Below, piece by piece: positions 11,653-58,357 of a DNA stretch of 58,357 bases. The notes beneath the pieces were generated by a model that was not told where the DNA came from, ran no database searches, and was given only the letters and a program-made list of their open reading frames with translations. Every line of letters begins with the position of its first letter. Positions within the stretch are counted from its first letter, which is position 1. The stretch is from positions 1-58,357 of IMG/VR virus record IMGVR_UViG_3300030430_000907; one strand, written 5' to 3'. The translations under genes were made by a program, and so were the position numbers. This DNA is from a virus. Its lineage: Duplodnaviria > Caudoviricetes.

Positions 11653-14153
11653 TGAAAGATAAAAATATAGAACAGCTTTTTAATTTAGCAGGATATAACA
11701 AAAAAACAGACGATATAGATAGTGTTATATCAGACTTAGAAGAACGTATAGATTATGTCTTTGCCAAAGAAAAAGAGGCAAGAGAAGCTAGAAGTGCTTT
11801 GTTTGGACCAAGACCTAAACGTTTTATAGTTTCAGATGAAGAATTTTTAGAAAGATATCCTGTACGAGAAAAAGACTTATCTGTTGTACCACCAATAGCT
11901 GCAGCAGGAGCTAGGATGGCTATGTCTAATGAAGATAGAATAAGAAATTTTTATTTTGATGATGATAATAAACCTATAAAAAGTGCTCTAGCTGGACCAT
12001 TTAAAAGAGCCCTAGGTGAAGGAGCACCAAATATTATAAATAAGTCTAGAGTAGACGCTATGCAAGAATTATTAAAAGTATTAAGAAAACAAAAAAATAT
12101 AGAAAAAGAAAGTTTTCAAATGGGTGGTTTAACTGGTATGCAAGAACAAGTACAAGATGTAGCACAACAAGGTAGATTTGGTGACTCAACACTAATGCAT
12201 ATGTCTCCATTAGAAGTTGAGGCACTTAGAAGAACAGGTATGCTAACAGTTAATCCTATTACAGGATTACCAGAGGCATTTAAATTAAAAGACTATTTAC
12301 CCTTTATAGCTTCAGCAATAGCTACAGCAGCAGGAGCTACTCCTTTAGTAGCTGCTGGTGTTACAGGTGCAACCACTGCAGCGACCACAGGTAATATACA
12401 AAAAGGTTTAACGGCTGCTCTTATGAGTTATGGCATAGGTAGAGCTACTAAAGGCTTAGGTGGAGAACAAATAGCAGATACTGCAACAGATGTAGCAGTA
12501 GAAGGAACTGATGTAGTTACTACAGCCACAATGCCACAACCTGTTCCAACAGTTACTGTTCCTTCATCTGATGTAGTTACTACAGCAGCAAGACCAGGTG
12601 CTAATATAAATTTTGGTCAACAAGCAGATGCTTTTGCTAATCTTCCAAACGAAGTAGTTACTGTAGGCACACCTCCTCCGCCTCCTCCAACTTTTGATGA
12701 TAAGTTTGACCAATTTTTATCACAAGCTGCACAACCATCTTCCTTTGTACCTTTTGGTGTCGGAGCAGGTGGATATGGTGCTATACAATCTCAAGAGGCT
12801 TTTGAAAGATTTATGGCTAATCAAGAAACAGATGAAGAAAGAAGAAAAAGATTAGCAGCTATGTATCCTGAAAATGTTCCAATAGCATATGCAGATGAAG
12901 GTGGAGTAGTTAGATATTCAGATGGAACTAATTTAAATGGAAGTGGAACAGGTGGGAATCAAAATACAGCAGGAGCTAATTTGCTTCCAGTTTTTGAAAG
13001 AACAGCTAATCCAATAGCACCAGGATTTATGCCTGGATTTATGGGTGAGTATGATTACTTTACAGGAGGCAATCCTACAGCTACAGAATTACAACTAGGT
13101 ATATTAAATAGTGATGCAGTAGGTGGTCCAGATGCATTTGTTATGCCTGACATACCTGTATTTGACCCTACACAAATGGCAAGCTATCAACAATTTTATG
13201 GAGCACCAATAGAGGCAGGTGTACCTATAGCTTTTAATCCTAGAGGACCTATTAATCCTTTAGACGTTCCTATATTTGGTCCTTTTATACCTGAACAATC
13301 ATATGTACCACAACCAACACCAGCACCTACTCCAGCTCCAACACCTGCACCAACACCAGCTCCAACACCAGCACCAACCCCTGCTCCGACACCAGCTCCG
13401 ACACCAGCTCCTACTCCTGCACCTACACCTGCACCGACCCCTGCACCGACTCCTGCTCCAACTCCAGCACCTACACCTGCACCTACTCCAGCACCTACGC
13501 CTGCTCCGACACCAGCTCCTACTCCACCTCCAATAATAGGAGGAGGAGGTGATAATTTACTAACAGATAACTTATTAGAAAGAGTAATTAAAAATATACC
13601 AGGACCTTTTATACCTGATATTGTAACTAAGAGTGAAGGTAAAGAATTAAAACCTATACCAGAAGATAATGAGGGTTTACCTAAATTACCTGAAGATGTG
13701 AGAAATAAAATGGGTTATATGCAAAGTGGTCGACAAGTAGAGTCAGATTTAGTAAATAAAGTTATAGCTATTATCTTAGGACAAGCTAGAGATAATGGTG
13801 AAATAGATATGTTTGTTGAAAAGTATGGTAGTGAAATGTTTCAAATGTTAAGACAAAGACTTTTACAAAGCGTTGATGTAAACCCACAAACACAAGGACT
13901 TATACAGGGTCAACCTAATGGTGGGATGAGTGATGAGATATTTGGCACTATAGCACCTAATCAACCAGTTGCTGTATCACCAGGAGAATATATTATACCT
14001 GCTGATGTAGTCTCTGATTTAGGCGATGGTGATACAAACTCAGGAGCTAGAAAGTTAGATAACTTTTTGAACAATGTTAGAGAAGAAAAAACAGGAAGTT
14101 TAAAACAAGCAGAACCTATAAAGCTTGATGATGTTATGAAAGGAGTAATGTGA
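11652..14153 (+). CDS. Internal virion/ejection protein with (PTPA)n linker
   Basis: QGRFGD..LMHM...TVNP.TGLPEAF, Ala/Gly helices, C-terminal [17 protein letters not shown]. Confidence 0.65.
13314..13517 (+). repeat. 17 tandem 12-nt units encoding PTPA
   Basis: CCN-ACN-CCN-GCN repeated with varied third positions. Confidence 0.95.
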
Positions 14154-19900: not shown

Positions 19901-22900
19901 AATGAATCACGAAGTAATTCATGCTTTACGTGAATTAGATTTGTTAACAGAGAGAGAATATAACTTACTAGTAACCTATGCAAAAAATACACTTAAAAGA
20001 ATAAAAGTTTTAAATCCAGAAGGCAAAGAAGTTACACTTGCACAAGATATTACTGCCAAATATACAGGACCAAACACACCAGATTTAGACCCAGTTTCAT
20101 TAGATGAAGAATATGTTGCAGAATTATTTAGAGTTTATGTAGCAAACCCTAATGATGTTAAAGGTAAGTCTAAAGGTATACTGAAAAAGATAGTAGATTT
20201 TTTCAAAAGTATTTTAGATGCTATTACAGGAGCAGGATTTAGAACACCTTTAGGTGTCTTAGAAGATATAAAGACAGGAAAAATAGGTAAAAGAGAAAGA
20301 GGAAAATTTAGGTCTAACAAAGATATTTTAGCAGAGCAGGTAAATCAAAATGTACCTGTTACTGAGTTAAAGTTTAGTATTGATGAAGATAAATTAAGAA
20401 AAGAATTAGATGACGCAGCCTCAGAATTATACACTGCTCAAAGTATATTAAGAGCAGAGGGTAATAGAGTTTCTCGTAGAAACTATGATGCCATGTATAA
20501 AAGATATCAAGATGCTAATAATAAAGTTATCTATCTTGAATCAGAGTTAGCTAAAATTCCTAAACAACTATCTCTTAAATTTGGTAATGTACGTAAAACA
20601 GGATTACCTCCAAAATATTCAATAGATAAAATTACTCCTAGAGACCCAGTTGTTGTAGAAAAAAAATTAACACAAGAAGAAAAAAGAAACATATTAGATG
20701 GTGAATTTGTTTATCATATAACTCCTACAAAAAATGCTAGAAAAATAGCAGAAGAAGGTTTTAATATTTTTGCTGACAGTAATTATGTAAAAGCAGGAGA
20801 TGGCAGTAGATATCAAGACAGTCCTGGTGTTTTTGTTTTTAAAAATCCTTATGATGCTGTGGCTTTTGTAAAAAGAGTTAATTGGAAAGATGAAGATAAT
20901 TTTTCCATGATAAAACTTAGGAAAGGTAATAGAAGATATGAGGCAGATAAAGCTGCTGACTTTCAGTTGTATCCTAATTTTTCTTCTAATACTGCAGAAG
21001 ATTTAGGTGTTGAGTTAAATGAATTTTCTTTAAATCAATTAACAAGAGGTCAGGAAGATAAGTCTGGCAATCTTAGAACTACATATTATGTGCCTTCTTT
21101 ACAAACTCCAGAACCATTTAAACCTGAAGATATAGTTGGTATTGTTACTTTTCCAGATATGGAAAAAGCTTTTAAAGACCCAATCGTAGATTTTCGTCAA
21201 TACAATAATCATTCAGAAGAAAGTTTTAACAGTAATTTAGATAATCCTAGTCCTTTTGGATTTGCTAAAATTATAGATAACTTATTTGAAACAAGAGAAG
21301 CTGTAGAGGGTGCAGTTAAAGAACTAAATAAATTTTCACCTATATCACCAAAGTTTTCTAGAGGCACTATTACTCCAATAGAATTATTTGGTGATGGTAA
21401 ATTAGAACAAAGAATACAAAGAGAATTTTTAGATAATAATAAAGAACTTACAGGTAAACAAATAGAGGATATCTTAAAAGATTTTGCTCTTAAACCTACC
21501 CCTAAAAGAAAATGGATTGGCACAAAAGAATTAGAGCAATCTATGAGAGATGCTTTAGCAAGAGGAGATGACCCATTTTGGTATGAGAGATGGGCAGATA
21601 TAAAAGATGATATAGGTTCAGCTAACATTAATGAGTTTTCTGGAGTATTTGGTGTAACATCAGAACAGGCTCAACCAGAAAAGAATTTAAAAGATACTTT
21701 GCGAACTATGATTATAGCTAGACGAGTTGACCCTGATAAGAATCCTAAAAAATTTATAAACGAATTAAAGAAAGCTAACGTAGGTAATAAAGAACCTAGA
21801 AGATTACAAAGAATATTAGACTTTTATGAATTAGGTATTTTAAAAAGAGAAGAGACTGGTCAAAAAACTGCGACATATGGTTTAGAAATAAATAGAGCTA
21901 TGCGTAATATGTTTACACCATTTAGTGTAATTGATAGACATATGCTAAGAAAGTTTGGTATTGATAGTGAAAAAGCAAATCAAACAGAATATAGAGTGAT
22001 GCAAGCAATAATTGGAAATATTGCTAAATATAAAGGTAATAATTTTACAACCAAAGATGGCACACCTTTAAATTTAAGTTTGCCACGACAAGTGCAAGCT
22101 TTGATTTGGGCAGACCAAAGATATACAGGTCCTACTAGAATATCTAATGAAGGCTCATATGAGGCAGCAAGAAGAGAATCATCTCAAGAATTATCAGAAA
22201 TAAAATTAATGAAACAAGATGGTTCATTTAATAGCAATAGACCTCTAAATGGTAAGTTTATATATGAGCCTGAGTATTCTACTAATATAAAAGATGACCC
22301 TATGAGCACAGAGGTTAGTAAGGATTTATACAATGCAACTATGAATCAGAGTCCTAGCCTAGCAATAGAATTAAAACCAGGAGTTGGTAGAGGATATTTA
22401 CCACCAAATCCTATTGTTAATGGCAACCCTCTATCTTTTTTTGATTATAGAAATTTTCAATTAGATGTTTTAAAAAGTATAACAGATGGTAATCAAATAA
22501 AATTTTTACAAGATTTAGGCATATCTCACAGAGTAACAGAATCTGCAGGTTCATATAAAGATGGCTTTGCAGTGCCTAATTTAGTTATACAGTTTCCAAA
22601 CTCTACAGCTACTGAGATAAAAGATTATGGCAGATTATTAGGAGATGCTTTCTTACAAGATGCTGTAGTTTATTTTAAAGCTTCAACAAGAGGCAGACAG
22701 TCTACTGGTGTTATGTTTGTTAAGCCTGATAACAGTTTACTAACACAAACTGAACTTAATGATTTAGTTCGTGATTTAAAAAACATAGACCGAGATTTTG
22801 ATTTTACTTTACTAGCAGGACACAAAGTAGGACCAATGGTTTTAGACCCTAAATCTTTTCTTGAAGGACAACCATATGATAAAAGACAATACGCAAACTT

Positions 22901-25900
22901 CTTAAGGAAGTTAGTACCTTTAGCTAAAGAAAAAGGTTATACTTTAGAGAGTTTTAATGGTGACTCAAGTTATTTAGCTTATGAAACAGGACAAGAAGGA
23001 ACAAGCGGAAGTGGATATTCCAACGCTCTTGAAAGAGTTAGGAGTAAAAGAGGCGGACTCGAATCATCCAGTTTACAAAGAGCAGCCCTTTCTAATCTTT
23101 ACATCCCTATCTACAAAAAATACGAAAAGTTCGCAAGACAACTAGACGATTTTAATTTACCCCCACCACCATATACCCTACCAGGCAGTGCAGTAGGCAA
23201 TCTTAATAACATAAATTTAAAATCAGCAGAGGCACGTGCAAGAGCAATAAAAGATAGAGAAGACTTATCTCCTACAACAGTTCCAAAATTTAACGAGAAC
23301 GCAAATCCTTTAGCTCTAGCCATAGCTTATGATTATCAAGATGGCAAAATACCAGACGATACTCCACCAAAGATACCTCTTAAATATTCTAGAACAACAA
23401 CTAATGTTCCAGAAAAATATGCAGAAATATCTAAGAAAGTAGGTGAGTCTGAGATAAAAGAAAATAAAACTTTTGGAGCAGCCATACTAGATTCTTTTGC
23501 TTTAACTGATGATGATAGTTCAGTAAATTTTTTAGACAGAATATATAAAGCTTTAGTAGATAGATTAGCTTTCGTTGAAAGAGGAGTTAAACAGTCTGTA
23601 GATATTTTAAATAAACGAGCAGAAGAAGGTGATATTGAGGCAGCAGAAGCACAAAACTGGGCACAAAGTGGAGCTATGCAACAGCTACGTCATACTGATA
23701 AGTCTAATCAAATAGTAGCTCAAGCTATGACAAAAGGACCTCCTGTAATAAAAAGAGGTGACAAAGACCTTGGGATAACAACTACTATAGATTTTAAACA
23801 TGGTGGTCTAGCAGATATTTTTGCACCTTTATATGAAGACCCTAGTCTATTTCAAAATGAACAATATATGGGAGAACAGCTATTTAAAATACTAGCTGTG
23901 GGTTCTAGGTCAGAAACATTAAATGCTCAGGGTATAGAAGTGCCTTTAGATGAAGACATGATAAAGTTAGCACAAGAAATAAGAACTGACTTTCCTGTAG
24001 TTGCACAAGTCTATGATAGATATCAAGAATTTAATGCCAAGGTTATTGAGTTTGCAGTTGAGACTGGCATATTAGAGGGCACTAGAGACCCTGTTGATTT
24101 AGCTAGAGATATTGTTAAAGCTGCTGCGGAAAATGATATCCCTGGATACAAATTTAATTCTTTAAGAGAACTATCTTTAGGAGAGTTATCATCAATAGCT
24201 GGTGATTTAAACTCACAATTACGAGGAACAAAAGGTTTTGAGCCTATAAGAATAAAGTCTCAAGCAGATATGTGGTTAGAAAATTCTAACTATTATCCTT
24301 TCTATAGAAAAATGATAGATGAAACTATAGGAGGACCTAATGTTGCTGCAGGTATACTATCAGGTAATCCATTAAATATTCGTATAAAAGGCAGTAAAGA
24401 AGCATTAGAGCCAGCACCACTGGATGTTATTTTTAGAAACCTTCAAGCAATTACAAATGCTGCTATGAAGAATGAAGGTTTACAAAGATTAATGGAGTTA
24501 CATAGACAAGCAGGCAGGGCAGAACTGGCGACAGCCAATACTCCTATAACTCAAAAAGTTACAGTTTATGAAAATGGTAAGAAAGTAGAGTATCAAGTAG
24601 CTGATGCTTTATTAATAGATGGACTACAGTCTATGAATATGGCAGATGACTCTGGATTTTTAATAGGTTTAGCTGCAGGAGCTTCTAATATATTAAGGGA
24701 GGCAGTTACTAGAGACCCTATCTTTATGGTTAGAAACTTGACTAGAGATAGTTTAGTTTCAAGAGTTATAACAGGCGTTGACTATCTCCCTATAATAGAA
24801 ACATTTAAAAAATTTAATTCTGATATGACTGAATTGGAAAGGCGTGGAATTATAGGTGGTTATGATGCTGCAAGAGACCCAAATGATGCAGGTAAATTTT
24901 TCAGAAAATTAATGAAAAAAAGAAAGCTAGATGAATATGGGTCTTTAAATCCTTTTGATTCTGTAGTACAAATGTGGGATTGGTTAGGAGACCTGACTAC
25001 AGCATCAGATGGTGCAACTAGAAATGTAGTGTACGAAAAAGTTTTAGAGTTAACTGATAGTCAGGCTGAGGCATCTTATCAGGCTCTAGAGATTATGAAC
25101 TTTAACAGAAGAGGTAGTAATCCACTTTTTAAAATTGTTACCGCAGCTATACCTTTCTTAAATGCTAGAATACAAGGTTTAGACGTATTGGCTAGAGCAC
25201 ATAGAGGACATTATTCAGCAGTAAAAAAATTGCAAGGACAGTCTATTGATAGAAAAGAATTAGAGAGTGAAATCTTTATCGGCACTCTAACTAGAGGTAT
25301 GTTTTTAGCTATGGTAACTGCATTGTATTATCTGTTTGTTTCTGATGATGAAGTTTACAAAAATGCAAGAAGAGAAACGAGAGATGATAATTGGTTAATA
25401 CCATTAGGCAGAGATTTACCTGCTCTAAAAGTACCTATACCTTTTGAAGTTGGTGTTTTGTATAAGGTTATACCTGAGAGATTGATTGACTTAACATTTG
25501 GTGATGCTACGTTTGACCAGACTATGAAATCATTGTCAAGGCAGGCGATTGTCACGTTTAAAGCAGACCCTTTAGGATTTCAATTTGTCAAACCTATAGT
25601 TGAAGTTATGAACAACAGGAGTGCTTATTTAGGCACAGATATCATTCCCTTCTATATGAAAGAAGGAGTAACTGCACAAGCACAATACAATGCTAATACT
25701 ACTGAATTTTCCAAAGGTTTAAGTGAGGCGTTAGGAAACGTTGGTATAGATATTGCTCCGATACATTTAGATTACCTTATCACTGGATACACAGGAACTA
25801 TAGGAGTTTATATGTCTGCGGTTGCTGATGCAGTAGCAAAGCAAACTACAGGCGATGAAGTTGTGCCAAGAGATATAGAACGTCTACCTATGTTTAGGTC

Positions 25901-26243
25901 TATCTTGCAGTCTAGAGATGGCGGAGGACTTCTTCAAGAATTTTACGAAATGAGAAAAGAGAGCAATAAATTTATTGGCACAGTCAACAAATTAATTAAA
26001 GAAGGTAAGTCAGACCAACTGAATATGTATTACAACAACCCTGATGGTCTCTTACAAACTAGAGCAGAAATATTAAAGCTAGACAGATACATAGCACATA
26101 TGAGGGATTTAGAGACAAAAATTAGAGCAGACAAAAAAATAACAGGTGAAATGAAAAAGATGTTAATAGATGAAATTAAAGCAGAAAAGCAAAAGAGATT
26201 AGCATATTTTTTACCTGATTTAAGAGACAGGATTACAGGCTAA
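16980..26243 (+). CDS. Giant polyvalent virion protein (zincin HExxH, ART-like, HhH-glycosylase-like and LPD38-like domains)
   Basis: 3087 aa. NHEVIHAL..EEYVAE; VYHITP...PGVFVF; WYER...VIDRHM...QVQALIW; C-terminal IPFLNARIQG, KVPIPFEVG, KPIVEVMNN. Confidence 0.75.
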   Translation: MMARYTLPDGRVLDIDLEQLSSEDKVNLQNWLAETYPDNFDRYIEKDIQGYTAELFKGIPRGGLQTLASSAEGIVNLFDAGNDSEIGNSLRAFQQSLNENKYIGIGEGYEDAFATKLGAGLGSFASFLIPGGLAGKIAGRAGKGLDIAARKSLVQRAQTRGAAAVAVPAGVAEQGRNIERARELGEEVGYGQELVSELLGGAIGYTEVYSIERLLRYLPSGYAPVVNNRLGSAFVLGGMEGLQEATAGLLQDAVARGIYSEELPIGESALDDFTVGGAVGFIADLVLRNRMSGFNSDYVREQEQEARKRREELKFEAKEMFESTPESQTPDVDPRIILPELESNLDTLDANKVFKVKNQAAKVVGDLAVYNNKISNSVTPVKDNFGIDYAEIYLNEVFEKIEDNIRARTDLTEEQRNKLIQGAISSKSKELDDLLQAALDAAPTTAPDEPIQRLNAFNKEPVKEKLEIIDNPNGTFSVVGEESANDYGSVTYPDYNTAAIEMRKIENNIDKDFNTQRIKQALYLQGNYGNGTAAKIGSLVYDNLFNDIPKTFIANLDSTIKPARKTKTDAVKGAQQRINQGIFDDITGERPISEQDIAALNQIIEEGAQGNIPIKARKIQSDSLADNFNKKVEKLGLPIKENYTVAEAKKILNKNDFNDLMAERARVVHKLSVSTGTIFANQRNQDFIDSTIPGIQEILQKKNIETQISDAGFEYFAEQVTGEKKYSKMNQGQKDLLASRLKELPRFDVITKFPDFRPRPYTVKDVNDFYVNNKGKTITNEILKNNIKNRNGKNLSQNDIKILRQDLIDSGRAVVDKNKLKLTFDFELEQARRANGLNESQQEFRERLRNTTALSEEEIASRVQANEGADAATIEEGDLKLLPPPATLEKFERLFEIARGQLNKLGLSDVGLKFSDRLRSAGNLQEVNGKLVFTGATEAGAYDPSLNKIFLSFNSIDPNGTLTEKELESKIAGIMNHEVIHALRELDLLTEREYNLLVTYAKNTLKRIKVLNPEGKEVTLAQDITAKYTGPNTPDLDPVSLDEEYVAELFRVYVANPNDVKGKSKGILKKIVDFFKSILDAITGAGFRTPLGVLEDIKTGKIGKRERGKFRSNKDILAEQVNQNVPVTELKFSIDEDKLRKELDDAASELYTAQSILRAEGNRVSRRNYDAMYKRYQDANNKVIYLESELAKIPKQLSLKFGNVRKTGLPPKYSIDKITPRDPVVVEKKLTQEEKRNILDGEFVYHITPTKNARKIAEEGFNIFADSNYVKAGDGSRYQDSPGVFVFKNPYDAVAFVKRVNWKDEDNFSMIKLRKGNRRYEADKAADFQLYPNFSSNTAEDLGVELNEFSLNQLTRGQEDKSGNLRTTYYVPSLQTPEPFKPEDIVGIVTFPDMEKAFKDPIVDFRQYNNHSEESFNSNLDNPSPFGFAKIIDNLFETREAVEGAVKELNKFSPISPKFSRGTITPIELFGDGKLEQRIQREFLDNNKELTGKQIEDILKDFALKPTPKRKWIGTKELEQSMRDALARGDDPFWYERWADIKDDIGSANINEFSGVFGVTSEQAQPEKNLKDTLRTMIIARRVDPDKNPKKFINELKKANVGNKEPRRLQRILDFYELGILKREETGQKTATYGLEINRAMRNMFTPFSVIDRHMLRKFGIDSEKANQTEYRVMQAIIGNIAKYKGNNFTTKDGTPLNLSLPRQVQALIWADQRYTGPTRISNEGSYEAARRESSQELSEIKLMKQDGSFNSNRPLNGKFIYEPEYSTNIKDDPMSTEVSKDLYNATMNQSPSLAIELKPGVGRGYLPPNPIVNGNPLSFFDYRNFQLDVLKSITDGNQIKFLQDLGISHRVTESAGSYKDGFAVPNLVIQFPNSTATEIKDYGRLLGDAFLQDAVVYFKASTRGRQSTGVMFVKPDNSLLTQTELNDLVRDLKNIDRDFDFTLLAGHKVGPMVLDPKSFLEGQPYDKRQYANFLRKLVPLAKEKGYTLESFNGDSSYLAYETGQEGTSGSGYSNALERVRSKRGGLESSSLQRAALSNLYIPIYKKYEKFARQLDDFNLPPPPYTLPGSAVGNLNNINLKSAEARARAIKDREDLSPTTVPKFNENANPLALAIAYDYQDGKIPDDTPPKIPLKYSRTTTNVPEKYAEISKKVGESEIKENKTFGAAILDSFALTDDDSSVNFLDRIYKALVDRLAFVERGVKQSVDILNKRAEEGDIEAAEAQNWAQSGAMQQLRHTDKSNQIVAQAMTKGPPVIKRGDKDLGITTTIDFKHGGLADIFAPLYEDPSLFQNEQYMGEQLFKILAVGSRSETLNAQGIEVPLDEDMIKLAQEIRTDFPVVAQVYDRYQEFNAKVIEFAVETGILEGTRDPVDLARDIVKAAAENDIPGYKFNSLRELSLGELSSIAGDLNSQLRGTKGFEPIRIKSQADMWLENSNYYPFYRKMIDETIGGPNVAAGILSGNPLNIRIKGSKEALEPAPLDVIFRNLQAITNAAMKNEGLQRLMELHRQAGRAELATANTPITQKVTVYENGKKVEYQVADALLIDGLQSMNMADDSGFLIGLAAGASNILREAVTRDPIFMVRNLTRDSLVSRVITGVDYLPIIETFKKFNSDMTELERRGIIGGYDAARDPNDAGKFFRKLMKKRKLDEYGSLNPFDSVVQMWDWLGDLTTASDGATRNVVYEKVLELTDSQAEASYQALEIMNFNRRGSNPLFKIVTAAIPFLNARIQGLDVLARAHRGHYSAVKKLQGQSIDRKELESEIFIGTLTRGMFLAMVTALYYLFVSDDEVYKNARRETRDDNWLIPLGRDLPALKVPIPFEVGVLYKVIPERLIDLTFGDATFDQTMKSLSRQAIVTFKADPLGFQFVKPIVEVMNNRSAYLGTDIIPFYMKEGVTAQAQYNANTTEFSKGLSEALGNVGIDIAPIHLDYLITGYTGTIGVYMSAVADAVAKQTTGDEVVPRDIERLPMFRSILQSRDGGGLLQEFYEMRKESNKFIGTVNKLIKEGKSDQLNMYYNNPDGLLQTRAEILKLDRYIAHMRDLETKIRADKKITGEMKKMLIDEIKAEKQKRLAYFLPDLRDRITG

Positions 26244-26885: not shown

Positions 26886-26918
26886 GCAAAAGAACATACA
26901 CCAGTGAATATTCTTTGC
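26886..26918. promoter_or_regulatory. Copy of dispersed 22-bp palindrome (GAAYATWCAC-YR-GTGAATATTC)
   Basis: GCAAAAGAACATACACCAGTGAATATTCTTTGC, intergenic. Confidence 0.7.
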
Positions 26919-28717: not shown

Positions 28718-28745
28718 AAAGAAAATACACCAGTGAATATTCTTT
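28718..28745. promoter_or_regulatory. Copy of dispersed palindrome
   Basis: AAAGAAAATACACCAGTGAATATTCTTT, intergenic. Confidence 0.7.
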
Positions 28746-28767
28746 GTTCCGCCATGTCGCTTGAAAG

Positions 28768-37171: not shown

Positions 37172-37196
37172 ATTACCTCCATGATTTTTTTGGTTA

Positions 37197-37252
37197 TCTG
37201 TTTCGACCCTTTTGGGTCTTCATCAGTAGGAAATACACATTTCCTAGACAGA
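37197..37252 (-). ncRNA. Hammerhead ribozyme, type III (HHR-A)
   Basis: UCUG-UC-UAGGAAAU(GUGU)AUUUCCUA-CUGAUGA-A-GACCC(AAAA)GGGUC-GAAA-CAGA; GUC cut predicted at 37247/37246. Confidence 0.92.
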
Positions 37253-37307
37253 ACTCTAAAAAACGAGGCTCTAATTTAGCCTCTAACGAAAAGTTTAGGG
37301 GTAAGCA

Positions 37308-40806: not shown

Positions 40807-40825
40807 ATTTCATTTCTCCATAGTT

Positions 40826-40877
40826 ACCGATTTCATGCTTTTGCAATCATCAGACAGGGCGACACCCTGTTATCGAT
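40826..40877 (-). ncRNA. Hammerhead ribozyme, type III (HHR-B)
   Basis: AUCGA-UA-ACAGGGU(GUC)GCCCUGU-CUGAUGA-UUGC(AAAA)GCAU-GAAA-UCGGU; cut predicted at 40871/40870. Confidence 0.88.
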
Positions 40878-40879
40878 AA

Positions 40880-40903
40880 AAGAATATTCACTGGTGAATG
40901 TTT
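40880..40903. promoter_or_regulatory. Copy of dispersed palindrome, between hairpin and HHR-B
   Basis: AAGAATATTCACTGGTGAATGTTT; absent from the otherwise homologous HHR-C cassette. Confidence 0.7.
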
Positions 40904-40925
40904 GTGGGCAGATTTCTCTGCCCAC
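40904..40925 (-). repeat. GNRA-capped hairpin, copy 1
   Basis: GUGGGCAGA-GAAA-UCUGCCCAC, identical to 41301-41322. Confidence 0.85.
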
Positions 40926-40932
40926 CATCCTC

Positions 40933-41223
40933 CTAGTTTTGAATTGCAGATATGAATTCTTCCTTGAACTTCCTTGCTTGACCCATCATTTCTAGTAATG
41001 CCCATTCCTTAGCATCCTTGAAATCTACAACTGTGAGCCAGTTATGATGAACATAAAAATCATCATGCAATCCACGAACAGTGACATCATAGCCATACTT
41101 TCTGTCATAGCTTATGACCGCCTCTGTTGTTCCGAATGGACACTTGGCAGACCATTGTCCAAACTTATAAGTTTTCTCACCAACTTCCTTGGCATCATCG
41201 TTCCATACTAATTTATATTTCAT
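40933..41223 (-). CDS. Hypothetical early protein (between HHR-C and HHR-B)
   Basis: AGGAGG SD; 96 aa. Confidence 0.75.
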   Translation of the reverse strand: MKYKLVWNDDAKEVGEKTYKFGQWSAKCPFGTTEAVISYDRKYGYDVTVRGLHDDFYVHHNWLTVVDFKDAKEWALLEMMGQARKFKEEFISAIQN

Positions 41224-41247
41224 ATTTCCTCCTTGAAAAAATTAGTT

Positions 41248-41300
41248 ACCGATTTCATGCTTTCGCAATCGTCAGACAGAGTACACACTCTGTTATCGGT
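41248..41300 (-). ncRNA. Hammerhead ribozyme, type III (HHR-C)
   Basis: ACCGA-UA-ACAGAGU(GUGU)ACUCUGU-CUGACGA-UUGC(GAAA)GCAU-GAAA-UCGGU; cut predicted at 41294/41293. Confidence 0.9.
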
Positions 41301-41322
41301 GTGGGCAGATTTCTCTGCCCAC
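41301..41322 (-). repeat. GNRA-capped hairpin, copy 2
   Basis: Identical to 40904-40925; abuts HHR-C. Confidence 0.85.
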
Positions 41323-41331
41323 CATCCTCCC

Positions 41332-41709
41332 TCATAAAGTTATTCTAAATTTATCTTCGTTGTAGAAACTTCTGCTAACAAAAACTTTGATAAGTTTGTC
41401 GTTATAGACGTCACTAAAATTAGAAATAATTTCCTTTGCGGTTTTTTTAGTTAAGTCAACTCTGACACTGAAAGCATGAGGATAATATCTATCGTTCTTT
41501 AGACTTTCTTCATCATAACCACCAAGTGATGTAGATAAAGCAATATTTCTACATCTTCGTGATTTTACAATCTGACTTAATTCATCAGTGGTGACATAAA
41601 TGTGACCATAAGTAACAGTTTCTAACTGCTCAGGATTATCTCCATAGCCCTTTGGCTCTTGCCTCTTAGCTATAGCATCTTCGATTTTCTTCTTTAGTAA
41701 TGTTTTCAT
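41332..41709 (-). CDS. Hypothetical early protein (between HHR-D and HHR-C)
   Basis: GGAGG SD before ATG 41709 (MKTLLKKK). Confidence 0.75.
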   Translation of the reverse strand: MKTLLKKKIEDAIAKRQEPKGYGDNPEQLETVTYGHIYVTTDELSQIVKSRRCRNIALSTSLGGYDEESLKNDRYYPHAFSVRVDLTKKTAKEIISNFSDVYNDKLIKVFVSRSFYNEDKFRITL

Positions 41710-41734
41710 AATTTCCTCCATAAAAAACATTGGC

Positions 41735-41830
41735 AATCATCATCAGTTATCTACCGCCACGTAGATAAGACAACGTTAATTTGAAACATTGTTCTACGTA
41801 GAACAAAATGCAATCAACGAGGTTTCGATT
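41735..41830 (-). ncRNA. Hammerhead ribozyme, type II, with extended stem III and loop-I pseudoknot (HHR-D)
   Basis: AAUC-GAAA-C...long stem III...G-UC-UUAUCUAC(GUGGCG)GUAGAUAA-CUGAUGA-U-GAUU-GCCA; cut predicted at 41769/41768. Confidence 0.75.
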
Positions 41831-42207
41831 TAATTATCAACTGTCTGTTGGGAAACAGACGTGATGTGACTTGAGGCAACCCATCCCGAAGTAAAGCAAT
41901 CCCTTGCAAAGTGTAGTTTGTGTTGGCAAACATACACCCTTCATTTAAGAACAGGTCTAGGTCGTTTTCATGGCTATCGAAGAACTGGGGAGAACTTCTA
42001 CTAGCAACAGTCTGTTTGTGTTGATACTCTACCGAGCAACAAACTGACTGAACGCAGAACACACATAAGGTTGACTGTCACAGTCATACCTATCGAGGCG
42101 GTCTGTATATCTATTATTGAGTAAGAGAGATATTGATATTTCACTCCCATACCTTGTGGTGCAAGGCTGATTTGCTTGTTGTTTTCTGTGTCGTATATTT
42201 CCTCCAT
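41831..42207 (-). ncRNA. Putative large structured leader RNA
   Basis: At least seven hairpins in series between the promoter and HHR-D. Confidence 0.55.
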
Positions 42208-42213
42208 GTGTTT

Positions 42214-42242
42214 AATATAAGGGCAACAGGAAAATAATGCAA
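42214..42242 (-). promoter_or_regulatory. Sigma70-type promoter of the early operon
   Basis: TTGCAT-17-TATATT; start site near 42207. Confidence 0.65.
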
Positions 42243-42289
42243 CATTTAATTCAACACTAAAATGTATATCAATATGTGAGCATAGATAA

Positions 42290-42310
42290 AAGAACATTCA
42301 CTGGTTAAAA
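42290..42310. promoter_or_regulatory. Partial copy of dispersed palindrome in the divergent control region
   Basis: AAGAACATTCACTGGT; shares the GATAAAAG flank with the 40880 copy. Confidence 0.55.
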
Positions 42311-42343
42311 TTTAATCATGTACATCGACTGCAGGCACACAAT

Positions 42344-42784
42344 ATGGAAAAGAAATTAACAATAAAGCAAAGGGCATTTGTAGACGAGATTATCAAGGGC
42401 AAGGTAGGTAGTTATCAGGATGCATATATCAAAGTCTATGATGTGGCTCTAACCAAGACTGGGAAAGTACCTAAGTGGGTCAGGAATGAGGCTAGTAAGT
42501 TGGTAGCCAACCCTAGCATCACAATGGCAATCCAGAGAGGTCTGGAGAAGAAGGAACAGACAGTAGTGGCATCTGCAGTCAAGACCAAGCAATACGTCAT
42601 AGATAGGCTTTACAAGGAGAGTATAGAGTCTGATAGCGATGCAAGTAGAGTTAGAGCCTTGGAACTTTTGGGAAAAAGTGTGTCTCTGTTCACTGATGTA
42701 GTAGAGAACAAGGAGGCGAGGAGCAGTACAGAAATAGAGGCTGAACTAGAAGAGAGGATTGAGCAACTACTAACAAAGCATTGA
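42344..42784 (+). CDS. terS: Terminase small subunit
   Basis: LTIKQRAFV, AY..VY, ASKL..NP.I, RVRALELLGK...LF; upstream of terL. Confidence 0.88.
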   Translation: MEKKLTIKQRAFVDEIIKGKVGSYQDAYIKVYDVALTKTGKVPKWVRNEASKLVANPSITMAIQRGLEKKEQTVVASAVKTKQYVIDRLYKESIESDSDASRVRALELLGKSVSLFTDVVENKEARSSTEIEAELEERIEQLLTKH

Positions 42785-43143
42785 TTAAAAAATAACCAAC
42801 TACCACCCTATAAATAAGACTCGCATTTACTGACCCCACCCCCCGCAAACGCCTGCAGGCAGACAGACATACATACATAGTGTTTTACTCATTCTAATAC
42901 TAGATTTGATAGACCCCCTACCCCCTATTTTGCAGAAAAAGACCCTAGGAATCCTAAGCCTCTAAAAATTTTATATCATTTTATGTTGACTTTTCGTGTG
43001 AAGAGACCGATTATTGTATAATCTGTAGATACTTATACCTATCTAGTAGGTACATACTGTAAGTTAGTGACCACATATAGGTAACTACGTAAATTTTTTA
43101 CCGAGTATCTACAAAGTATTTGGTTACTACATATGTAGTATGT

Positions 43144-44643
43144 ATGAATAGTAATGTTTTAAGTAAGTTACATACGCTTTCCTCTTCTGAGAAAGAAGAA
43201 CTTTTATCTCTGTTACAAGAATTAGAACTATCAAAGGCTAGAGAATCATGTGAGGATGAGTTCCTAAGCTTTGTTAAACAGATGTGGTCAGCTTTTATTC
43301 ATGGTAAACACCATGAGATTATGGCTGAGGCTTTTGAAAGAGTAGCCAAAGGTGAATTAAAGAGGCTAATTATTAATATGCCTCCCAGACATACGAAGTC
43401 AGAGTTCGCATCTTACCTATTACCTGCTTGGTTTCTTGGTAAGTATCCTGATAAGAAGATTATTCAGACTGCCCATACTGCAGAACTAGCGGTAGGGTTT
43501 GGTCGTAAGGTTAGGAACTTAGTTAATAGTTCTGACTTCAAAGAGATATTCCCTGCTATAAGTCTGCAAGCAGATAGTAAAGCAGCAGGAAGATGGAACA
43601 CAAACAAAGGTGGTGAGTATTTTGCTATCGGTGTTGGCGGTGCAGTTACTGGTAAGGGTGCAGATTTGTTAATCATTGATGACCCTCACAGTGAACAAGA
43701 AGGTGCTAGTGCTGATATCAATGTCTTTAACAAGACCTATGAGTGGTATACCTCTGGTCCAAGACAGCGTTTACAACCCAAAGGCTCTATCGTTGTGGTG
43801 ATGACAAGATGGCATGATAAGGATTTAACTGGACAGTTAGTCGATGCTAGTGTTAAACGTGGCGGTGCAGACGAATGGGAAGTTATAGAACTACCTGCAA
43901 TACTACCATCAGGTAATCCATTGTGGGAAGAGTTCTGGAAGTTGGAAGAACTTGAGGCTCTACGTGCCGAACTACCGACCTCAAAGTGGATGGCTCAGTA
44001 TCAGCAAGACCCCACTGCAGAGGAAGGAGCTATCATCAAAAGAGAATGGTGGCGTGAATGGGAAGGTCGAGAGCCACCAAAGTGTGAGTTTGTTATTCAA
44101 TCTTGGGATACTGCTTTCTTAAAATCGCAGCGAGCCGACTACTCTGCCTGTACTACCTGGGGAGTATTCTATCGTGAGAGTGATGAAGATGGCATGATGA
44201 GACCTGAAATCATTCTGCTAGATGCTCACAAAGCTAGACTAGAGTTTCCTGAATTAAAGAAACGAGCTATGGAATGTTATAGGTCCTATAAGCCTGATGC
44301 TTTTATTATTGAGGCAAAGGCAGCAGGTACACCTTTAATATTTGAGTTAAGGCAGATGGGTATACCAGTACAGGAATACACACCAAGTAGAGGTAATGAT
44401 AAGATTGCTAGAGTTAATGCAGTAGCTGATTTATTTTCTTCAGGCATTGTTTGGTGTCCTCAAACTCGTTGGGCAGAAGAAGTAGTAGAGGAGTTTGCCT
44501 CTTTCCCAAATGCCGAACACGATGACTTAGTAGATAGCAGTACACAAGCACTATTAAGATTTAGACAAGGTGGTTTTGTTCCATTACATAGTGATGAAGA
44601 AGATGAGCCACTAGAACATAATAAGACAGCGAATTATTACTAG
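43144..44643 (+). CDS. terL: Terminase large subunit
   Basis: INMPPRHTKS, LLIIDDP, VMTRW, YQQDP, SWDTA, IEAKAAG, HDDLVDS. Confidence 0.96.
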   Translation: MNSNVLSKLHTLSSSEKEELLSLLQELELSKARESCEDEFLSFVKQMWSAFIHGKHHEIMAEAFERVAKGELKRLIINMPPRHTKSEFASYLLPAWFLGKYPDKKIIQTAHTAELAVGFGRKVRNLVNSSDFKEIFPAISLQADSKAAGRWNTNKGGEYFAIGVGGAVTGKGADLLIIDDPHSEQEGASADINVFNKTYEWYTSGPRQRLQPKGSIVVVMTRWHDKDLTGQLVDASVKRGGADEWEVIELPAILPSGNPLWEEFWKLEELEALRAELPTSKWMAQYQQDPTAEEGAIIKREWWREWEGREPPKCEFVIQSWDTAFLKSQRADYSACTTWGVFYRESDEDGMMRPEIILLDAHKARLEFPELKKRAMECYRSYKPDAFIIEAKAAGTPLIFELRQMGIPVQEYTPSRGNDKIARVNAVADLFSSGIVWCPQTRWAEEVVEEFASFPNAEHDDLVDSSTQALLRFRQGGFVPLHSDEEDEPLEHNKTANYY

Positions 44644-56593: not shown

Positions 56594-58357
56594 ATGGCAA
56601 CGTATGTAAACAATTTAAGATTAAAAGAAATAGCTACAGGTGATGAGGCTGGAACTTGGGGTGCTTCTACTAATACAAATTTAGAATTAGTTGGAGAAGG
56701 TTTAGGTTTTGGCACTGAGGCTATCACAACAAATGCAGATACTCATACATCTACTGTAGCTGATGGCTCAGCAGATGAGGCTAGAGCTATGTACATTAAA
56801 TATACAGGCACATTAGACAGTGCTTGTACTATAACAATAGGACCAAACACATTAAAAAGAGTTCACTTTATAGAGAATGGTACATCAGGTAGTCAAAACA
56901 TAATAATAAAACAAGGCTCTGGAGCTACAGTAACTATTGGTCCAGGAGATGTTAAGGTAGTTTATCTAGATGGTGCAGGCTCAGGTGCAGCAGTAAATGA
57001 TGCTTTTGCAAGCTTATCAACAGTAGATTTAAAAGTAGGTGATGATTTAACAGTTACAGATGATGCATCAGTGGGTGGTGATTTATTGGTGAGTGGTGAA
57101 GTGCAGACTGCTAATATAGGTTTTACCGATGGAGATAACGCTATCACAATAGCTGATGGCGGAGGTATAACAGCAGCAGCAGGAATCACATCCACTGCCG
57201 CATCTAACACATTTGGAGCAACATCTTTTAATGATGCCAATATAACTAACGTTGGTGATATTGCATTAGATAGTTTATCAGCAGATGGGTCTAGTATTTC
57301 AATAGCTAGTCCAGTTGTTATAAATGGTACAACACCTAGTTTAACTATAGGTGATGCAGGAGCAGAGGATACAAGTTTAGTCTTTGATGGCAATGCAAAA
57401 GATTTTTATGTGGGTCTTGATGACTCGGCTGATAAATTAGTCGTAGGTGTAGGCTCAACAGTAGGTACAAACTCAATACTAACTTTAGATGATGACTCAC
57501 TTGTTATAGGTGATGGAGCAGCAGTTGATACTTCCATTGTCTTTGATGGTAATGCTCAAGACTTTTATATTGCACTTGATGACTCTGCTGATGACTTATT
57601 AATAGGTAATGGCAGTACAGTAGGCTCTAATGTAGCTATCGGTATTAATGAAAGCCAAGTGGTGCAATTTAATGGAGCATATACATTTCCAACATCAGAT
57701 GGTAGTGCTGACCAAGTATTAAAAACAAATGGTAGTGGTGCATTATCTTTTGGCACAGTTTCTTCAGGCACAACAACAACTATTAATAACAATGCAGACA
57801 ATAGACTAATAACAGGAAGTGGCACAGCTAACACATTAGAAGGTGAGGCTAATGCTACATGGAATGGTAATACTCTTGCATTAACAGCAGGAGCAGGAAA
57901 TACAGGTATATCTCTTACAGATGGCTCAACTAACTATGGTTTTATTGGTGGTGGTAATGCTCTTAAATCAGGTGGTAGTGCCAATGACTTTTCATTTAGA
58001 ACCGACACTGGCTCTATAGACTTTTACACTAATGGTCAAAATTTAAGGTTTTCTCTTGAATCAAGTGGGCAAATTAACATGACTGATAATATATGTATGG
58101 GTACTACTTCACAAAGAGACAATGCTGTAATAACTGCTATAAAAGATGGTAATAATTCTGACGCTGTTTTAGATATGGACCATGGTACAGGTGATGCCTC
58201 ATTTTATAGATTTATAAAGTTTAGAAAGAAGAATGAATCTTCTGCTGTAGGTAGACTTGATGCAGATATAACAGGTAGCACTATGACACTTGCTTTTGAC
58301 TCTGATGGTAGATACAAAGATATTTTAGGTGATGCAGATGGTTTAAATCTTATATCA
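56594..58357 (+). CDS. Tail fibre protein, 3'-truncated (absent from ORF track)
   Basis: ATG 56594 MATYVNNLRLKEIATGDEAGTWG.STN.NL, open to the window end; the end matches the fibre at 1-1296. Confidence 0.88.
   Translation, partial: MATYVNNLRLKEIATGDEAGTWGASTNTNLELVGEGLGFGTEAITTNADTHTSTVADGSADEARAMYIKYTGTLDSACTITIGPNTLKRVHFIENGTSGSQNIIIKQGSGATVTIGPGDVKVVYLDGAGSGAAVNDAFASLSTVDLKVGDDLTVTDDASVGGDLLVSGEVQTANIGFTDGDNAITIADGGGITAAAGITSTAASNTFGATSFNDANITNVGDIALDSLSADGSSISIASPVVINGTTPSLTIGDAGAEDTSLVFDGNAKDFYVGLDDSADKLVVGVGSTVGTNSILTLDDDSLVIGDGAAVDTSIVFDGNAQDFYIALDDSADDLLIGNGSTVGSNVAIGINESQVVQFNGAYTFPTSDGSADQVLKTNGSGALSFGTVSSGTTTTINNNADNRLITGSGTANTLEGEANATWNGNTLALTAGAGNTGISLTDGSTNYGFIGGGNALKSGGSANDFSFRTDTGSIDFYTNGQNLRFSLESSGQINMTDNICMGTTSQRDNAVITAIKDGNNSDAVLDMDHGTGDASFYRFIKFRKKNESSAVGRLDADITGSTMTLAFDSDGRYKDILGDADGLNLIS
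57776..58357 (+). repeat. Imperfect direct repeat (582 nt), copy 2
   Basis: Colinear with 454-1035. Confidence 0.95.

What the first reader, a model, noticed from the sequence alone, without database searches (positions are those of the whole stretch)
41769..42207. About 440-nt highly structured leader RNA released by a ribozyme
Seen: between the promoter and HHR-D lies a run of hairpins at 42151-67, 42068-91, 42008-50, 41911-37, 41896-907 and 41843-60. Two loops are complementary (GGGA in GCAA/UUGC and UCCC in GUCUGUU/AACAGAC), suggesting a kissing contact, and loop CUCCC could pair with upstream GGGAG. HHR-D would define its 3' end exactly. It does not resemble tRNA, tmRNA or RNase P by eye. 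Inference: a new large phage ncRNA made first in infection (antiterminator, decoy or scaffold). Caveat: a leaderless 68-aa ORF (42001-42207) overlaps it.
Basis: partly seen in the sequence, partly recalled or inferred. Interest (0 to 1): 0.75.

Follow-up and report, generated by a model that had tools for sequence, protein, structure and literature searches.

The report
Structured early leader RNA of phage
The stretch is a non-coding, hairpin-rich leader at the start of a marine phage's early operon whose folds are conserved in a sister lineage. The ribozyme said to cut it free is a broken remnant here, although intact hammerhead-type elements sit at that spot in relatives.

Summary
The window is a near-complete 58-kb marine phage record. 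Its nearest cultured relatives are phage DSL-LC04 and Pelagibacter phages HTVC027P and HTVC023P.

Region 41769-42207 (- strand) lies in the 607-nt divergent gap between terS and the leftward operon. It is non-coding: the 68-aa ORF shows no codon-type conservation.

The core 42207-41862 is shared by six other contigs in two clades. It is 79% identical between clades, against 61-68% at four-fold sites of terS and terL.

The consensus fold is significant only on the - strand (z -3.4, against -0.6 on the + strand). One of them has four compensatory pairs.

The kissing contact is not supported, because the UCCC hairpin is missing from the sister clade.

"HHR-D" keeps GUC, helix I and CUGAUGA. It lacks the 3' strand of helix II, a GAAA core in register and helix III, and Rfam does not see it. 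It is a truncated hammerhead.

In the sister clade a covariation-supported hammerhead variant follows the leader core directly. In many relatives a hammerhead-type element sits just before the first gene's ribosome-binding site.

There is no Rfam match and no expression data. Best reading: a new structured early leader, processed by a ribozyme in relatives but probably not in this genome.

The parts
42279..42308 (-). P1, promoter-like site: TTAACC, 18 nt, TATGCT. It overlaps the repeated motif CCAGTGAATGTTCTTTTATC.
   Evidence: Read. The -10-like motif TAATGCTCACA (up to 2 mismatches) is present in 16 of 36 terS-upstream regions of relatives. The motif is repeated in the window. The tool's own promoter scan did not list this site.
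42214..42242 (-). P2, sigma-70-type promoter-like site: TTGCAT, 17 nt, TATATT. The predicted start is A 42207.
   Evidence: Read. GATGTTGCA (up to 1 mismatch) is present in 15 of 36 relatives. The spacing is kept in clade B. One search did not list it, because only 3 of 6 positions match in the -35. No transcript mapping.
42183..42207 (-). 5' block invariant between the two clades (AUGGAGGAAAUAUACGACACAGAAA). It contains an SD-like GGAGGA.
   Evidence: Invariant columns 6-30 of alignment A3. The block resembles the true gene starts at 41722-41707 and 41236-41221.
41862..42207 (-). Conserved leader core, about 346 nt, shared by clades A and B.
   Evidence: 272 of 343 ungapped positions identical between window and L014. 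alifold z -3.38 on the - strand against -0.61 on the + strand. 77 consensus pairs, 9 of them compensatory.
42001..42207 (-). 68-aa ORF starting at the predicted transcript start. Judged not coding.
   Evidence: Differences by codon position 10/12/11. 4 synonymous against 21 non-synonymous codon changes. Amino-acid identity 39 of 60. A frameshift lies near the end in clade B. No Pfam or PHROG hit for the 98-aa frame that contains it.
42151..42167 (-). Hairpin H3 (GCCUUG/CAAGGU). The stem is invariant and the loop varies (A/U/C).
   Evidence: (helix 3).
42001..42057 (-). Long hairpin H5, 21 pairs with its tip.
   Evidence: helices 5 and 6: 0 broken pairs, 1 compensatory change (CG to GC) and 3 UA-to-UG changes. 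It folds independently in both clades at -19.7 and -20.9 kcal/mol. RNAalifold does not recover it on the + strand.
41979..41998 (-). Hairpin GAAG...CUUC. It is weak in the window (CCCC loop) and an 8-bp stem in clade B.
   Evidence: L014 and L018 differ by U-A against U.G. Clade B carries a 51-nt hairpin insertion just 5' of it.
41937..41962 (-). 26-nt block invariant between the clades and mostly unpaired in the consensus structure.
   Evidence: Columns 302-327 of A3. As an exact pattern it is found only in this family's contigs.
41908..41940 (-). Hairpin H11, the best-supported helix.
   Evidence: 11 pairs, 4 with compensatory double changes and none broken. Both clades fold it independently.
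41896..41907 (-). GGGA-loop hairpin (GCAA/UUGC). It is CUAA/UUAG in clade B.
   Evidence: Independent folds give the same hairpin with a changed stem and an invariant loop. MAFFT misaligns it.
41869..41892 (-). Hairpin H12 (ACUU.GGG...CCU.AAGU), the last element common to both clades.
   Evidence: helix 12. L019 has G.U changed to A-U. Folds.
41772..41861 (-). 3' extension specific to clade A. It holds the UCCC-loop hairpin 41843-41860 and a variable hairpin region.
   Evidence: Absent from clade B. It differs by indels even among window, L002 and L019. Hairpin fold.
41710..41771 (-). 'HHR-D', a truncated hammerhead remnant. GUC is at 41771-41769, helix I at 41768-41747 and CUGAUGA at 41746-41740. 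The rest is replaced by the RBS cassette of the next gene.
   Evidence: Position. It fails the rule scan that found 29 hammerhead-type elements. No Rfam hammerhead at E<=10 in a 151-nt search, whereas the same kind of search finds Hammerhead_3 at 37195-37254. It aligns to the 5' half of the L051 hammerhead-like element and lacks that element's helix II hairpin and its AAAUCGAAAC segment.
41332..41709 (-). First leftward gene (125 aa from the ATG at 41709), with RBS GGAGG just upstream.
   Evidence: Homologues in L009 (97%) and L010 (72%). No family hit. A metatranscriptome contig covers 41512-41746.

Best explanation
The region is the non-coding 5' leader of the phage's leftward (presumably early) operon.

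How it is made (inferred): it is transcribed from a sigma-70-type promoter P2, with a predicted start at 42207. A second conserved promoter-like site, P1, lies about 65 nt upstream and probably also contributes.

What it is (shown by comparison): its first ~346 nt (42207-41862) form a chain of conserved hairpins with two invariant stretches. This is an RNA-level element under purifying selection.

Its 3' end in relatives (shown as sequence and covariation; cleavage itself untested): in the sister clade the core is followed within about 16 nt by a hammerhead-type self-cleaving motif and then the ribosome-binding site of the first gene. There the leader would be severed from the mRNA.

Its 3' end here (inferred): the corresponding hammerhead has been truncated by recombination with the cassette that carries the 125-aa gene's ribosome-binding site. 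So the leader most likely stays attached as a ~500-nt 5' UTR, or is trimmed by host RNases.

Likely role (inferred): a cis-acting early leader that sets the stability, processing or translation of the first early message.
For: Context:
- terS and terL are on the + strand, and the ATPase, DUF3150 and DUF2201/VWA genes are on the - strand.
- In most of the 36 relatives examined, the first ORF of at least 60 aa on the leftward strand starts 400-850 nt from terS.

Non-coding: codon-position differences are 10/12/11, against 12/9/54 in terS.

Constraint: 79% identity, against 61% (terS) and 67.5% (terL) at four-fold sites.

Structure:
- RNAalifold gives 77 pairs, 9 of them compensatory, with 99.7% of cells paired. 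Slid controls give 37-49% paired and 0-1 compensatory pairs.
- Column-shuffle test: - strand -71.7 against -53.7 +/- 5.3, with 0 of 150 shuffles as low. + strand z -0.61, with 40 of 150.
- Five hairpins fold alike when each clade is folded alone.

Promoter motifs are conserved in relatives.

Ribozyme at the leader's end in relatives: the U.U-type hammerhead variant has 12 of 17 pairs compensatory and an invariant core.

HHR-D is truncated.

Precedent: Pelagibacter phage HTVC027P has a 548-nt gap at the same place, holding the Rfam family Flavobacterium-1 RNA at 90.2 bits.
Against: - Only two clades, effectively two independent sequences, carry this leader. Covariation counts therefore rest on one divergence event per column. 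The consensus structure was also derived from the same alignment it was tested on.
- Taking the window's own MFE as the structure, 15 of 99 pairs are broken in clade B. The global fold is therefore not conserved; only individual hairpins are.
- The single-sequence z-score is only -1.7.
- RNAalifold finds about as many compensatory pairs on the + strand (10 of 79).
- There is no transcript evidence. The two metatranscriptome contigs lie on the 125-aa gene and on terS, not on the leader.
- The promoters are consensus readings, and the tool's own scan did not list them.
- The covariance model of the 3' domain found no further homologue in 94 sources.
- Rfam does not recognise the U.U-type hammerheads, and their activity is untested.
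Confidence: 0.6

Rival explanations
1. It is a free-standing, trans-acting phage ncRNA. The leader would be liberated from the early transcript, by the hammerhead in relatives and by a host RNase or residual HHR-D activity here. It would then act on its own as a decoy, sponge or scaffold early in infection.
For: - Invariant loop and single-stranded blocks (GGGA loop, 26-nt block 41937-41962, 25-nt 5' block) suggest recognition by a partner.
- Relatives place a self-cleaving motif exactly between leader and RBS.
- Non-homologous leaders occupy the same slot in related phages.
- In HTVC027P that slot holds a family that Rfam types as sRNA.
Against: - There is no intact ribozyme and no terminator in this genome.
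- No partner or target has been identified.
- No RNA data cover the leader.
- The family is very narrow: the window plus six other contigs.
Confidence: 0.2
2. It is a DNA-level element, such as a replication origin, a packaging signal or a cluster of protein-binding inverted repeats in the divergent control region. The inverted repeats would be kept for DNA or protein recognition, not for RNA folding.
For: - It lies at the strand-switch point next to terS, where the cumulative GC skew turns.
- A palindromic motif is repeated across the genome, and one copy lies at 42287-42310.
- Watson-Crick compensatory changes are symmetric between strands.
Against: - The signal is strand-specific: z -3.4 against -0.6.
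- Several one-sided changes go to G.U, which would be A.C on the other strand.
- The helices lie downstream of promoters that point the same way.
Confidence: 0.08
3. It encodes a small protein: the leaderless 68-aa ORF 42207-42001, which is 75 aa in clade B.
For: - The frame is open in both clades (69 and 76 codons).
- Its AUG coincides with the predicted P2 start.
- It has a hydrophobic C-terminal half.
Against: - There is no third-position bias (10/12/11, chi-square p 0.91).
- 4 synonymous against 21 non-synonymous codon changes, many of them radical.
- The C-terminus is frameshifted in clade B.
- No family hit.
Confidence: 0.04
4. It is ordinary spacer sequence. The hairpins would be chance or remnants of mobile hairpins and decayed genes, and the conservation would only reflect recent common ancestry.
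For: - The single-sequence fold is not significant.
- Only close relatives share the region.
- A 51-nt hairpin like one in the 3' part of L002 and L019 is inserted in clade B.
- The 5' block looks like a decayed gene start.
Against: - Identity is well above that of neighbouring four-fold sites.
- One 11-pair helix has four compensatory pairs and none broken.
- The column-shuffle z is -3.4.
Confidence: 0.08

Closest known systems
HHphage hammerhead of haloarchaeal viruses HF1/HF2 (Perreault et al. 2011, PMC3088659; passages read)
   Same: A hammerhead sits a few nucleotides (13 nt) upstream of the start codon of the first ORF of an early polycistronic transcript. The mapped 5' end lies within 3 nt of the cleavage site. 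This is the same design as in clade B and many relatives here.
   Different: That case concerns the ribozyme, not the upstream piece. No conserved structured leader was described in the passages read. Here the window's own copy of the ribozyme is truncated.
Early leader of coliphage T7, removed by RNase III at site R0.3 (recalled from Dunn and Studier 1983; not found)
   Same: Tandem host-type early promoters are followed by a leader of several hundred nucleotides. The leader is cut off just before the first early gene, and further processing sites lie between early genes.
   Different: In T7 the cut is made by host RNase III at hairpins. In this phage group the sites are hammerhead-type motifs. 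The T7 coordinates are recalled, not checked.
Flavobacterium-1 RNA (Rfam RF02976, typed sRNA)
   Same: In Pelagibacter phage HTVC027P it lies at the equivalent place on the same strand. That place is the 548-nt gap between the divergent gene blocks. The hit scores 90.2 bits against a gathering score of 58.9.
   Different: There is no match in the window and none at gathering in 20 relatives. The two RNAs are positional analogues, not homologues. I found nothing on this family's function: it does not occur in the main text of Weinberg 2017, and the supplements are closed.
Type III hammerhead ribozyme (Rfam RF00008)
   Same: HHR-D has the GUC site, a closed helix I and CUGAUGA. The window holds a recognisable copy at 37195-37254 (33 bits, E 7.8e-6, below the gathering score of 48.5). 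It also holds two U.U-type variants, at 40821-40882 and at the CUGACGA site 41253-41275.
   Different: HHR-D lacks the helix II closing strand, G12/GAAA in register and helix III.
Large phage-associated ncRNAs GOLLD and ROOL (named in Weinberg 2017)
   Same: They are long, multi-hairpin, phage-borne RNAs of unknown function.
   Different: No Rfam match of any kind. No tRNA neighbours. The RNA here is shorter, lies in a 5' UTR position, and has a far narrower distribution.

Membership tests
Hammerhead ribozyme (for HHR-D, 41710-41771) | Cleavage triplet NUH followed by helix I, then core CUGANGA | tested here: met
   GUC, an 8-bp helix I (41768-41747) and CUGAUGA (41746-41740). L019 has a C-to-U change that keeps a G.U pair.
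Hammerhead ribozyme (for HHR-D, 41710-41771) | Helix II closed by a 3' strand, followed directly by core G12-A13-A14 (GAAA) | tested here: not met
   No register gives both a helix II and GAAA (reading). Alignment to the L051 hammerhead-like element shows that its helix II hairpin and AAAUCGAAAC segment are missing.
Hammerhead ribozyme (for HHR-D, 41710-41771) | Helix III pairing of the sequence 3' of GAAA with the sequence 5' of the cleavage site | tested here: not met
   It fails the 3-pair rule of the scan that accepted 29 elements in the window and relatives.
Hammerhead ribozyme (for HHR-D, 41710-41771) | Score against the Rfam hammerhead covariance models | tested here: not met
   No hammerhead family at E<=10 in a 151-nt search. 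The control at 37195-37254 scores 33 bits. Caveat: the U.U-type variants are also missed.
Hammerhead ribozyme (for HHR-D, 41710-41771) | Self-cleavage activity | not testable with these tools
   Needs an in vitro transcription assay.
Any described RNA family (Rfam 15) for the leader | Covariance-model match | tested here: not met
   0 matches at gathering in the whole window. Only chance-level hits at E<=10 in 41300-42700. RF02976 was specifically absent. No tRNA or tmRNA.
Conserved structured non-coding RNA (general criteria) | Helices kept by compensatory changes, above controls | tested here: met
   9 of 77 pairs, against 0-1 in slid controls. H11 has 4 of 11. The limitation is that there are only two clades.
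Conserved structured non-coding RNA (general criteria) | Structure signal specific to the transcribed strand | tested here: met
   z -3.38 (0 of 150) on the - strand against -0.61 (40 of 150) on the + strand.
Conserved structured non-coding RNA (general criteria) | No coding signature | tested here: met
   with the terS control.
Conserved structured non-coding RNA (general criteria) | The region is transcribed | tested here: inconclusive
   One search for sequencing runs and one lay of reads. The RNA contigs cover only 41512-41746 and 42598-42811.
Protein-coding gene (ORF 42001-42207) | Excess of third-position and synonymous change between homologues | tested here: not met
   10/12/11 differences, and 4 synonymous against 21 non-synonymous codons.

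The most novel reading that the evidence does not exclude
The leader is a new class of early phage ncRNA. It would be one of several unrelated structured RNAs, including Flavobacterium-1 RNA in Pelagibacter phage HTVC027P, that occupy the 'first transcribed' slot of HTVC023P/027P-like marine phages. These RNAs would be cut free by hammerhead ribozymes and act in trans on the host, for example as a decoy against a defence or as a takeover factor. The same ribozymes would at the same time unmask the ribosome-binding site of the first early gene.
Probability: 0.2. Interest if true: 0.8.

Novelty: new variant of a known kind. Interest (0 to 1): 0.55.

Why it matters
These phages belong to an abundant group of marine podoviruses related to pelagiphages, and their early gene control is unknown.

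The data point to a recurrent design: host-type promoters, a long ORF-free structured leader, then a hammerhead-type motif directly before the first ribosome-binding site, with more such motifs before later genes. If that holds, these phages process their early messages with their own ribozymes. That would give a natural function to bacterial and phage hammerheads, a long-standing open question.

The leader itself would add a new structured RNA motif. The HTVC027P/Pelagibacter system is a cultured model in which the analogous leader, which holds an Rfam family of unknown function, can be tested.

Tried and rejected
- **Nucleotide search of cultured phages.** blastn of 41600-42400 against 50,697 phage records gave no match.
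- **Exact-pattern scans.** Four conserved blocks were scanned in IMG/VR and one in GTDB genomes. They returned only contigs already in hand, or nothing.
- **More relatives through terL.** 80 loci were fetched. None carries this leader by sensitive blastn.
- **Covariance model of the 3' domain.** Model R1 found only its six training sequences in 94 sources (601 kb), plus one chance hit at E 0.26.
- **Other leader types.** Relatives carry other leaders. One of these, the 'C-type' (4 sequences), also shows a - strand consensus-fold signal: z -3.08 with 1 of 150 shuffles, against -1.54 with 11 of 150 on the + strand.
- **The window's own MFE as the test structure.** It gave only 16 maintained against 15 broken among the changed pairs. 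I dropped the global fold and kept single hairpins.
- **Expression.** The run search found two metatranscriptome runs with small shares. Their contigs lie at 41512-41746 and 42598-42811. There is no cover on the leader, and I draw no inference from that.
- **Rfam at gathering on 20 relatives.** 0 hits. Gathering-level Rfam therefore misses this group's hammerheads too.
- **Literature.** 'pelagiphage' + 'ribozyme' gave 2 papers, neither on hammerheads (one judged from its listing, one from a passage). 'Flavobacterium-1' gave 1 unrelated paper. A T7 early-leader source was not found. Weinberg 2017 does not mention Flavobacterium in its main text, and its supplements, which may describe the motif, are closed.
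- **Rejected ideas.** tRNA or tmRNA. An intrinsic terminator ending a small RNA: 0 found. A conserved kissing loop: the partner hairpin is absent in clade B.

Full report
**Context.** The window is a whole IMG/VR virus record of 58,357 bp, estimated 99% complete. The small and large terminase genes lie at 42344-42784 and 43120-44643 on the + strand. On the - strand run a 125-aa gene (41332-41709), a 96-aa gene, an ATPase, a DUF3150 protein and a DUF2201/VWA protein. By terL the closest cultured phages are Phage DSL-LC04 (59.7%) and Pelagibacter phages HTVC027P (57.2%) and HTVC023P (53%). The finding lies in the 607-nt divergent gap 41737-42343.

**The observation.** The six hairpins are present. 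On its own the 439-nt stretch folds only slightly better than shuffles: z -1.70 with 6 of 100 on the - strand, and z -1.17 on the + strand. Rfam gives nothing at gathering for the whole window. It gives only chance-level hits at E<=10 for 41300-42700. There are no tRNA or tmRNA genes and no terminator-like sites in 41200-42900.

**Homologues.** Scans of IMG/VR and of metagenome contigs with terS and with conserved blocks gave six other contigs that carry this leader.
- Clade A holds the window, L002 (about 97% identical), L019 (about 94-95%) and L001/L013 (partial).
- Clade B holds L014, L018 and L003/L012 (partial), 73-81% identical to the window by blastn.

Relatives with 69-70% terS identity, and 80 further loci found through terL, carry no detectable copy. 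A covariance model of the 3' domain found only its training sequences in 94 sources. The family is therefore narrow.

**Coding or not.** The 68-aa ORF starts at 42207. It stays open in clade B, but its differences fall evenly over codon positions (10/12/11). Only 4 of 25 changed codons are synonymous, amino-acid identity is 39 of 60, and the end is frameshifted. In terS the same comparison gives 12/9/54. No other frame is open in both clades.

**Constraint.** The core 42207-41862 is 272/343 = 79% identical between the window and L014. Four-fold degenerate sites are 30/49 identical in terS and 131/194 in terL.

**Structure.**
- RNAalifold on the six sequences predicts 77 pairs on the - strand, 9 of them with compensatory double changes.
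- On that structure 99.7% of cells pair. When partners are slid by 1-3 columns, 37-49% pair and 0-1 pairs are compensatory.
- The strongest helix is 41908-41940, with 4 compensatory pairs of 11 and none broken.
- The long hairpin 42001-42057 has no broken pair, one CG-to-GC swap and three UA-to-UG changes.
- Hairpin 42151-42167 has an invariant stem and a variable loop.
- The GGGA-loop hairpin 41896-41907 keeps its loop while the stem changes from GCAA/UUGC to CUAA/UUAG.
- Hairpins at 41979-41998 and 41869-41892 also recur.
- A column-shuffle test of the consensus fold gives z -3.38 (0 of 150) on the - strand and z -0.61 (40 of 150) on the + strand.

**Results against a strong reading.**
- There are only two clades, and the structure was derived from the alignment it was tested on.
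- RNAalifold finds 10 compensatory pairs on the + strand too.
- With the window's own MFE as the structure, 15 of 99 pairs break in clade B.
- Hairpin 42068-91 is not kept as drawn.
- The UCCC hairpin 41843-60 does not exist in clade B, so the kissing contact is not conserved.

**Promoters.** By reading, TTGCAT-17 nt-TATATT (42242-42214) predicts a start at A 42207. TTAACC-18 nt-TATGCT (42308-42279) lies upstream. Their core motifs recur in 15 and 16 of 36 relatives. The tool's own scan did not list them, and no mapping exists.

**HHR-D.** It has GUC, an 8-bp helix I and CUGAUGA. A rule-based scan asked for NUH, helix I, CUGA(N1-2)GA, GAAA and a 3-pair helix III. It found 29 distinct elements in the window and relatives, every one followed by GGAG and a start codon, but not HHR-D. 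A 151-nt Rfam search finds Hammerhead_3 at 37195-37254 (33 bits, E 7.8e-6). The same kind of search on 41680-41830 finds no hammerhead. HHR-D aligns with the 5' half of the L051 hammerhead-like element, down to the GUGGCG loop and the GAUGAU(A/U)GCCA segment. It lacks that element's helix II hairpin and its AAAUCGAAAC segment. In their place comes the same U-run plus RBS cassette that follows an intact hammerhead elsewhere in L019. I read it as a recombination-truncated remnant.

**What relatives show.** In clade B the leader core is followed within about 16 nt by a hammerhead-type motif, then the RBS. The motif's core reads CUGA(N1-2)GA, a 3-bp helix II flanked by U.U, then GAAA. Eight copies of this variant include two in the window: one at 40821-40882, and one, identical to L019:1920-1982, around the CUGACGA site at 41253-41275. 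Across the eight, 12 of 17 pairs are compensatory, 95.6% of cells pair and the core is invariant. Rfam does not recognise the variant, and its activity is untested. Most of the 36 relatives have a gap of 400-850 nt without ORFs of 60 aa or more between terS and the first leftward gene. Many end that gap with a hammerhead-type element. Published precedent is the HF1/HF2 halovirus hammerhead, 13 nt upstream of the first early ORF (PMC3088659, passages). In cultured HTVC027P the equivalent 548-nt gap holds Flavobacterium-1 RNA (RF02976) at 90.2 bits, on the strand of the leftward genes. That family is absent from the window.

**Conclusion.** The region is a real, conserved, non-coding and locally structured leader RNA element of a new sequence family. 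The claim that a ribozyme releases it holds for the sister clade by sequence, but not for this genome. Its function is not shown. I favour a cis-acting early leader (0.6) over a released trans-acting RNA (0.2).

Noticed in passing
window 37191-37258 (-): A type III hammerhead with a standard GUC, CUGAUGA and GAAAC core lies just before an RBS and start codon. Rfam Hammerhead_3 scores it 33 bits (E 7.8e-6), below the gathering score of 48.5. It is missed in whole-window searches.
   Followed up: partly
window 40821-40882 (-) and about 41240-41302 (-): Two copies of a hammerhead variant with a U.U mismatch flanking a 3-bp helix II lie between early genes. Eight copies across relatives show 12 of 17 compensatory pairs. 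Rfam does not recognise them.
   Followed up: partly
relatives, e.g. L032:2105-2166, L046:2080-2141, L055:1668-1737, L064:463-564: In 9 of 29 hammerhead-type elements a CUCC/CCUCC anti-Shine-Dalgarno sits within 22 nt upstream of the cut, and GGAG lies downstream. The two can pair across the ribozyme. Examples are CCUCCAA/UUGGAGG and CCUCCUA/UAGGAGG. Cleavage might unmask the RBS. Synthetic designs of this kind are recalled from the literature and were not checked.
   Followed up: partly
L100 678-798 (-), Pelagibacter phage HTVC027P record 17753-17873: Flavobacterium-1 RNA (RF02976) scores 90.2 bits in the 548-nt unannotated gap between the divergent gene blocks of this cultured pelagiphage. 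A near-consensus TTGACA-17-TATATA promoter lies upstream.
   Followed up: partly
window 26889-26917, 28718-28746, 40879-40907, 42287-42310 and others: The palindromic motif AAAGAAYATWCACYRGTGAATATTCTTT, or its half-site CAGTGAATRTTCTTT, gives 23 matches at up to 3 mismatches against 7.3 expected. Most lie between leftward genes. It could be an operator, a promoter element or a hairpin.
   Followed up: no
window 40903-40933 and 41300-41330: An identical 31-nt element holding the hairpin GUGGGCAGAGAAAUCUGCCCAC lies right after the stop codons of two successive early genes, just upstream of the hammerhead variants.
   Followed up: no
L014 about 2625-2675 (-); L002 and L019 3' part of the leader: The 51-nt insertion in clade B is itself a hairpin (CUCGUUGGUUAUUU...AACAACGAG). 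It resembles a hairpin found at a different place in the leader of L002 and L019. It may be a small mobile hairpin.
   Followed up: no
whole window: CTGATGA occurs 26 times against 9.3 expected. 0 of 100 shuffles reach that number. Only four sites were examined: three with a hammerhead-type context (40853, 41275 as CTGACGA, 37226) and the HHR-D remnant (41746).
   Followed up: partly
window 16980-26243 (+): A 3087-aa ORF has a C-terminal LPD38 domain (large polyvalent protein associated domain, E 3e-30). It is probably a giant virion or injected protein.
   Followed up: no
window 13277-13573; 454-753 and 57776-58075: There is a run of 12-nt tandem repeats inside a gene. Two 300-nt stretches near the record ends are 88% alike.
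   Followed up: no
window 41512-41746: A 235-nt contig from a marine metatranscriptome run (X1, depth 2.3) covers the 5' part of the 125-aa gene. It ends at the first base of CUGAUGA. One low-depth contig is too little to read as a transcript end.
   Followed up: no
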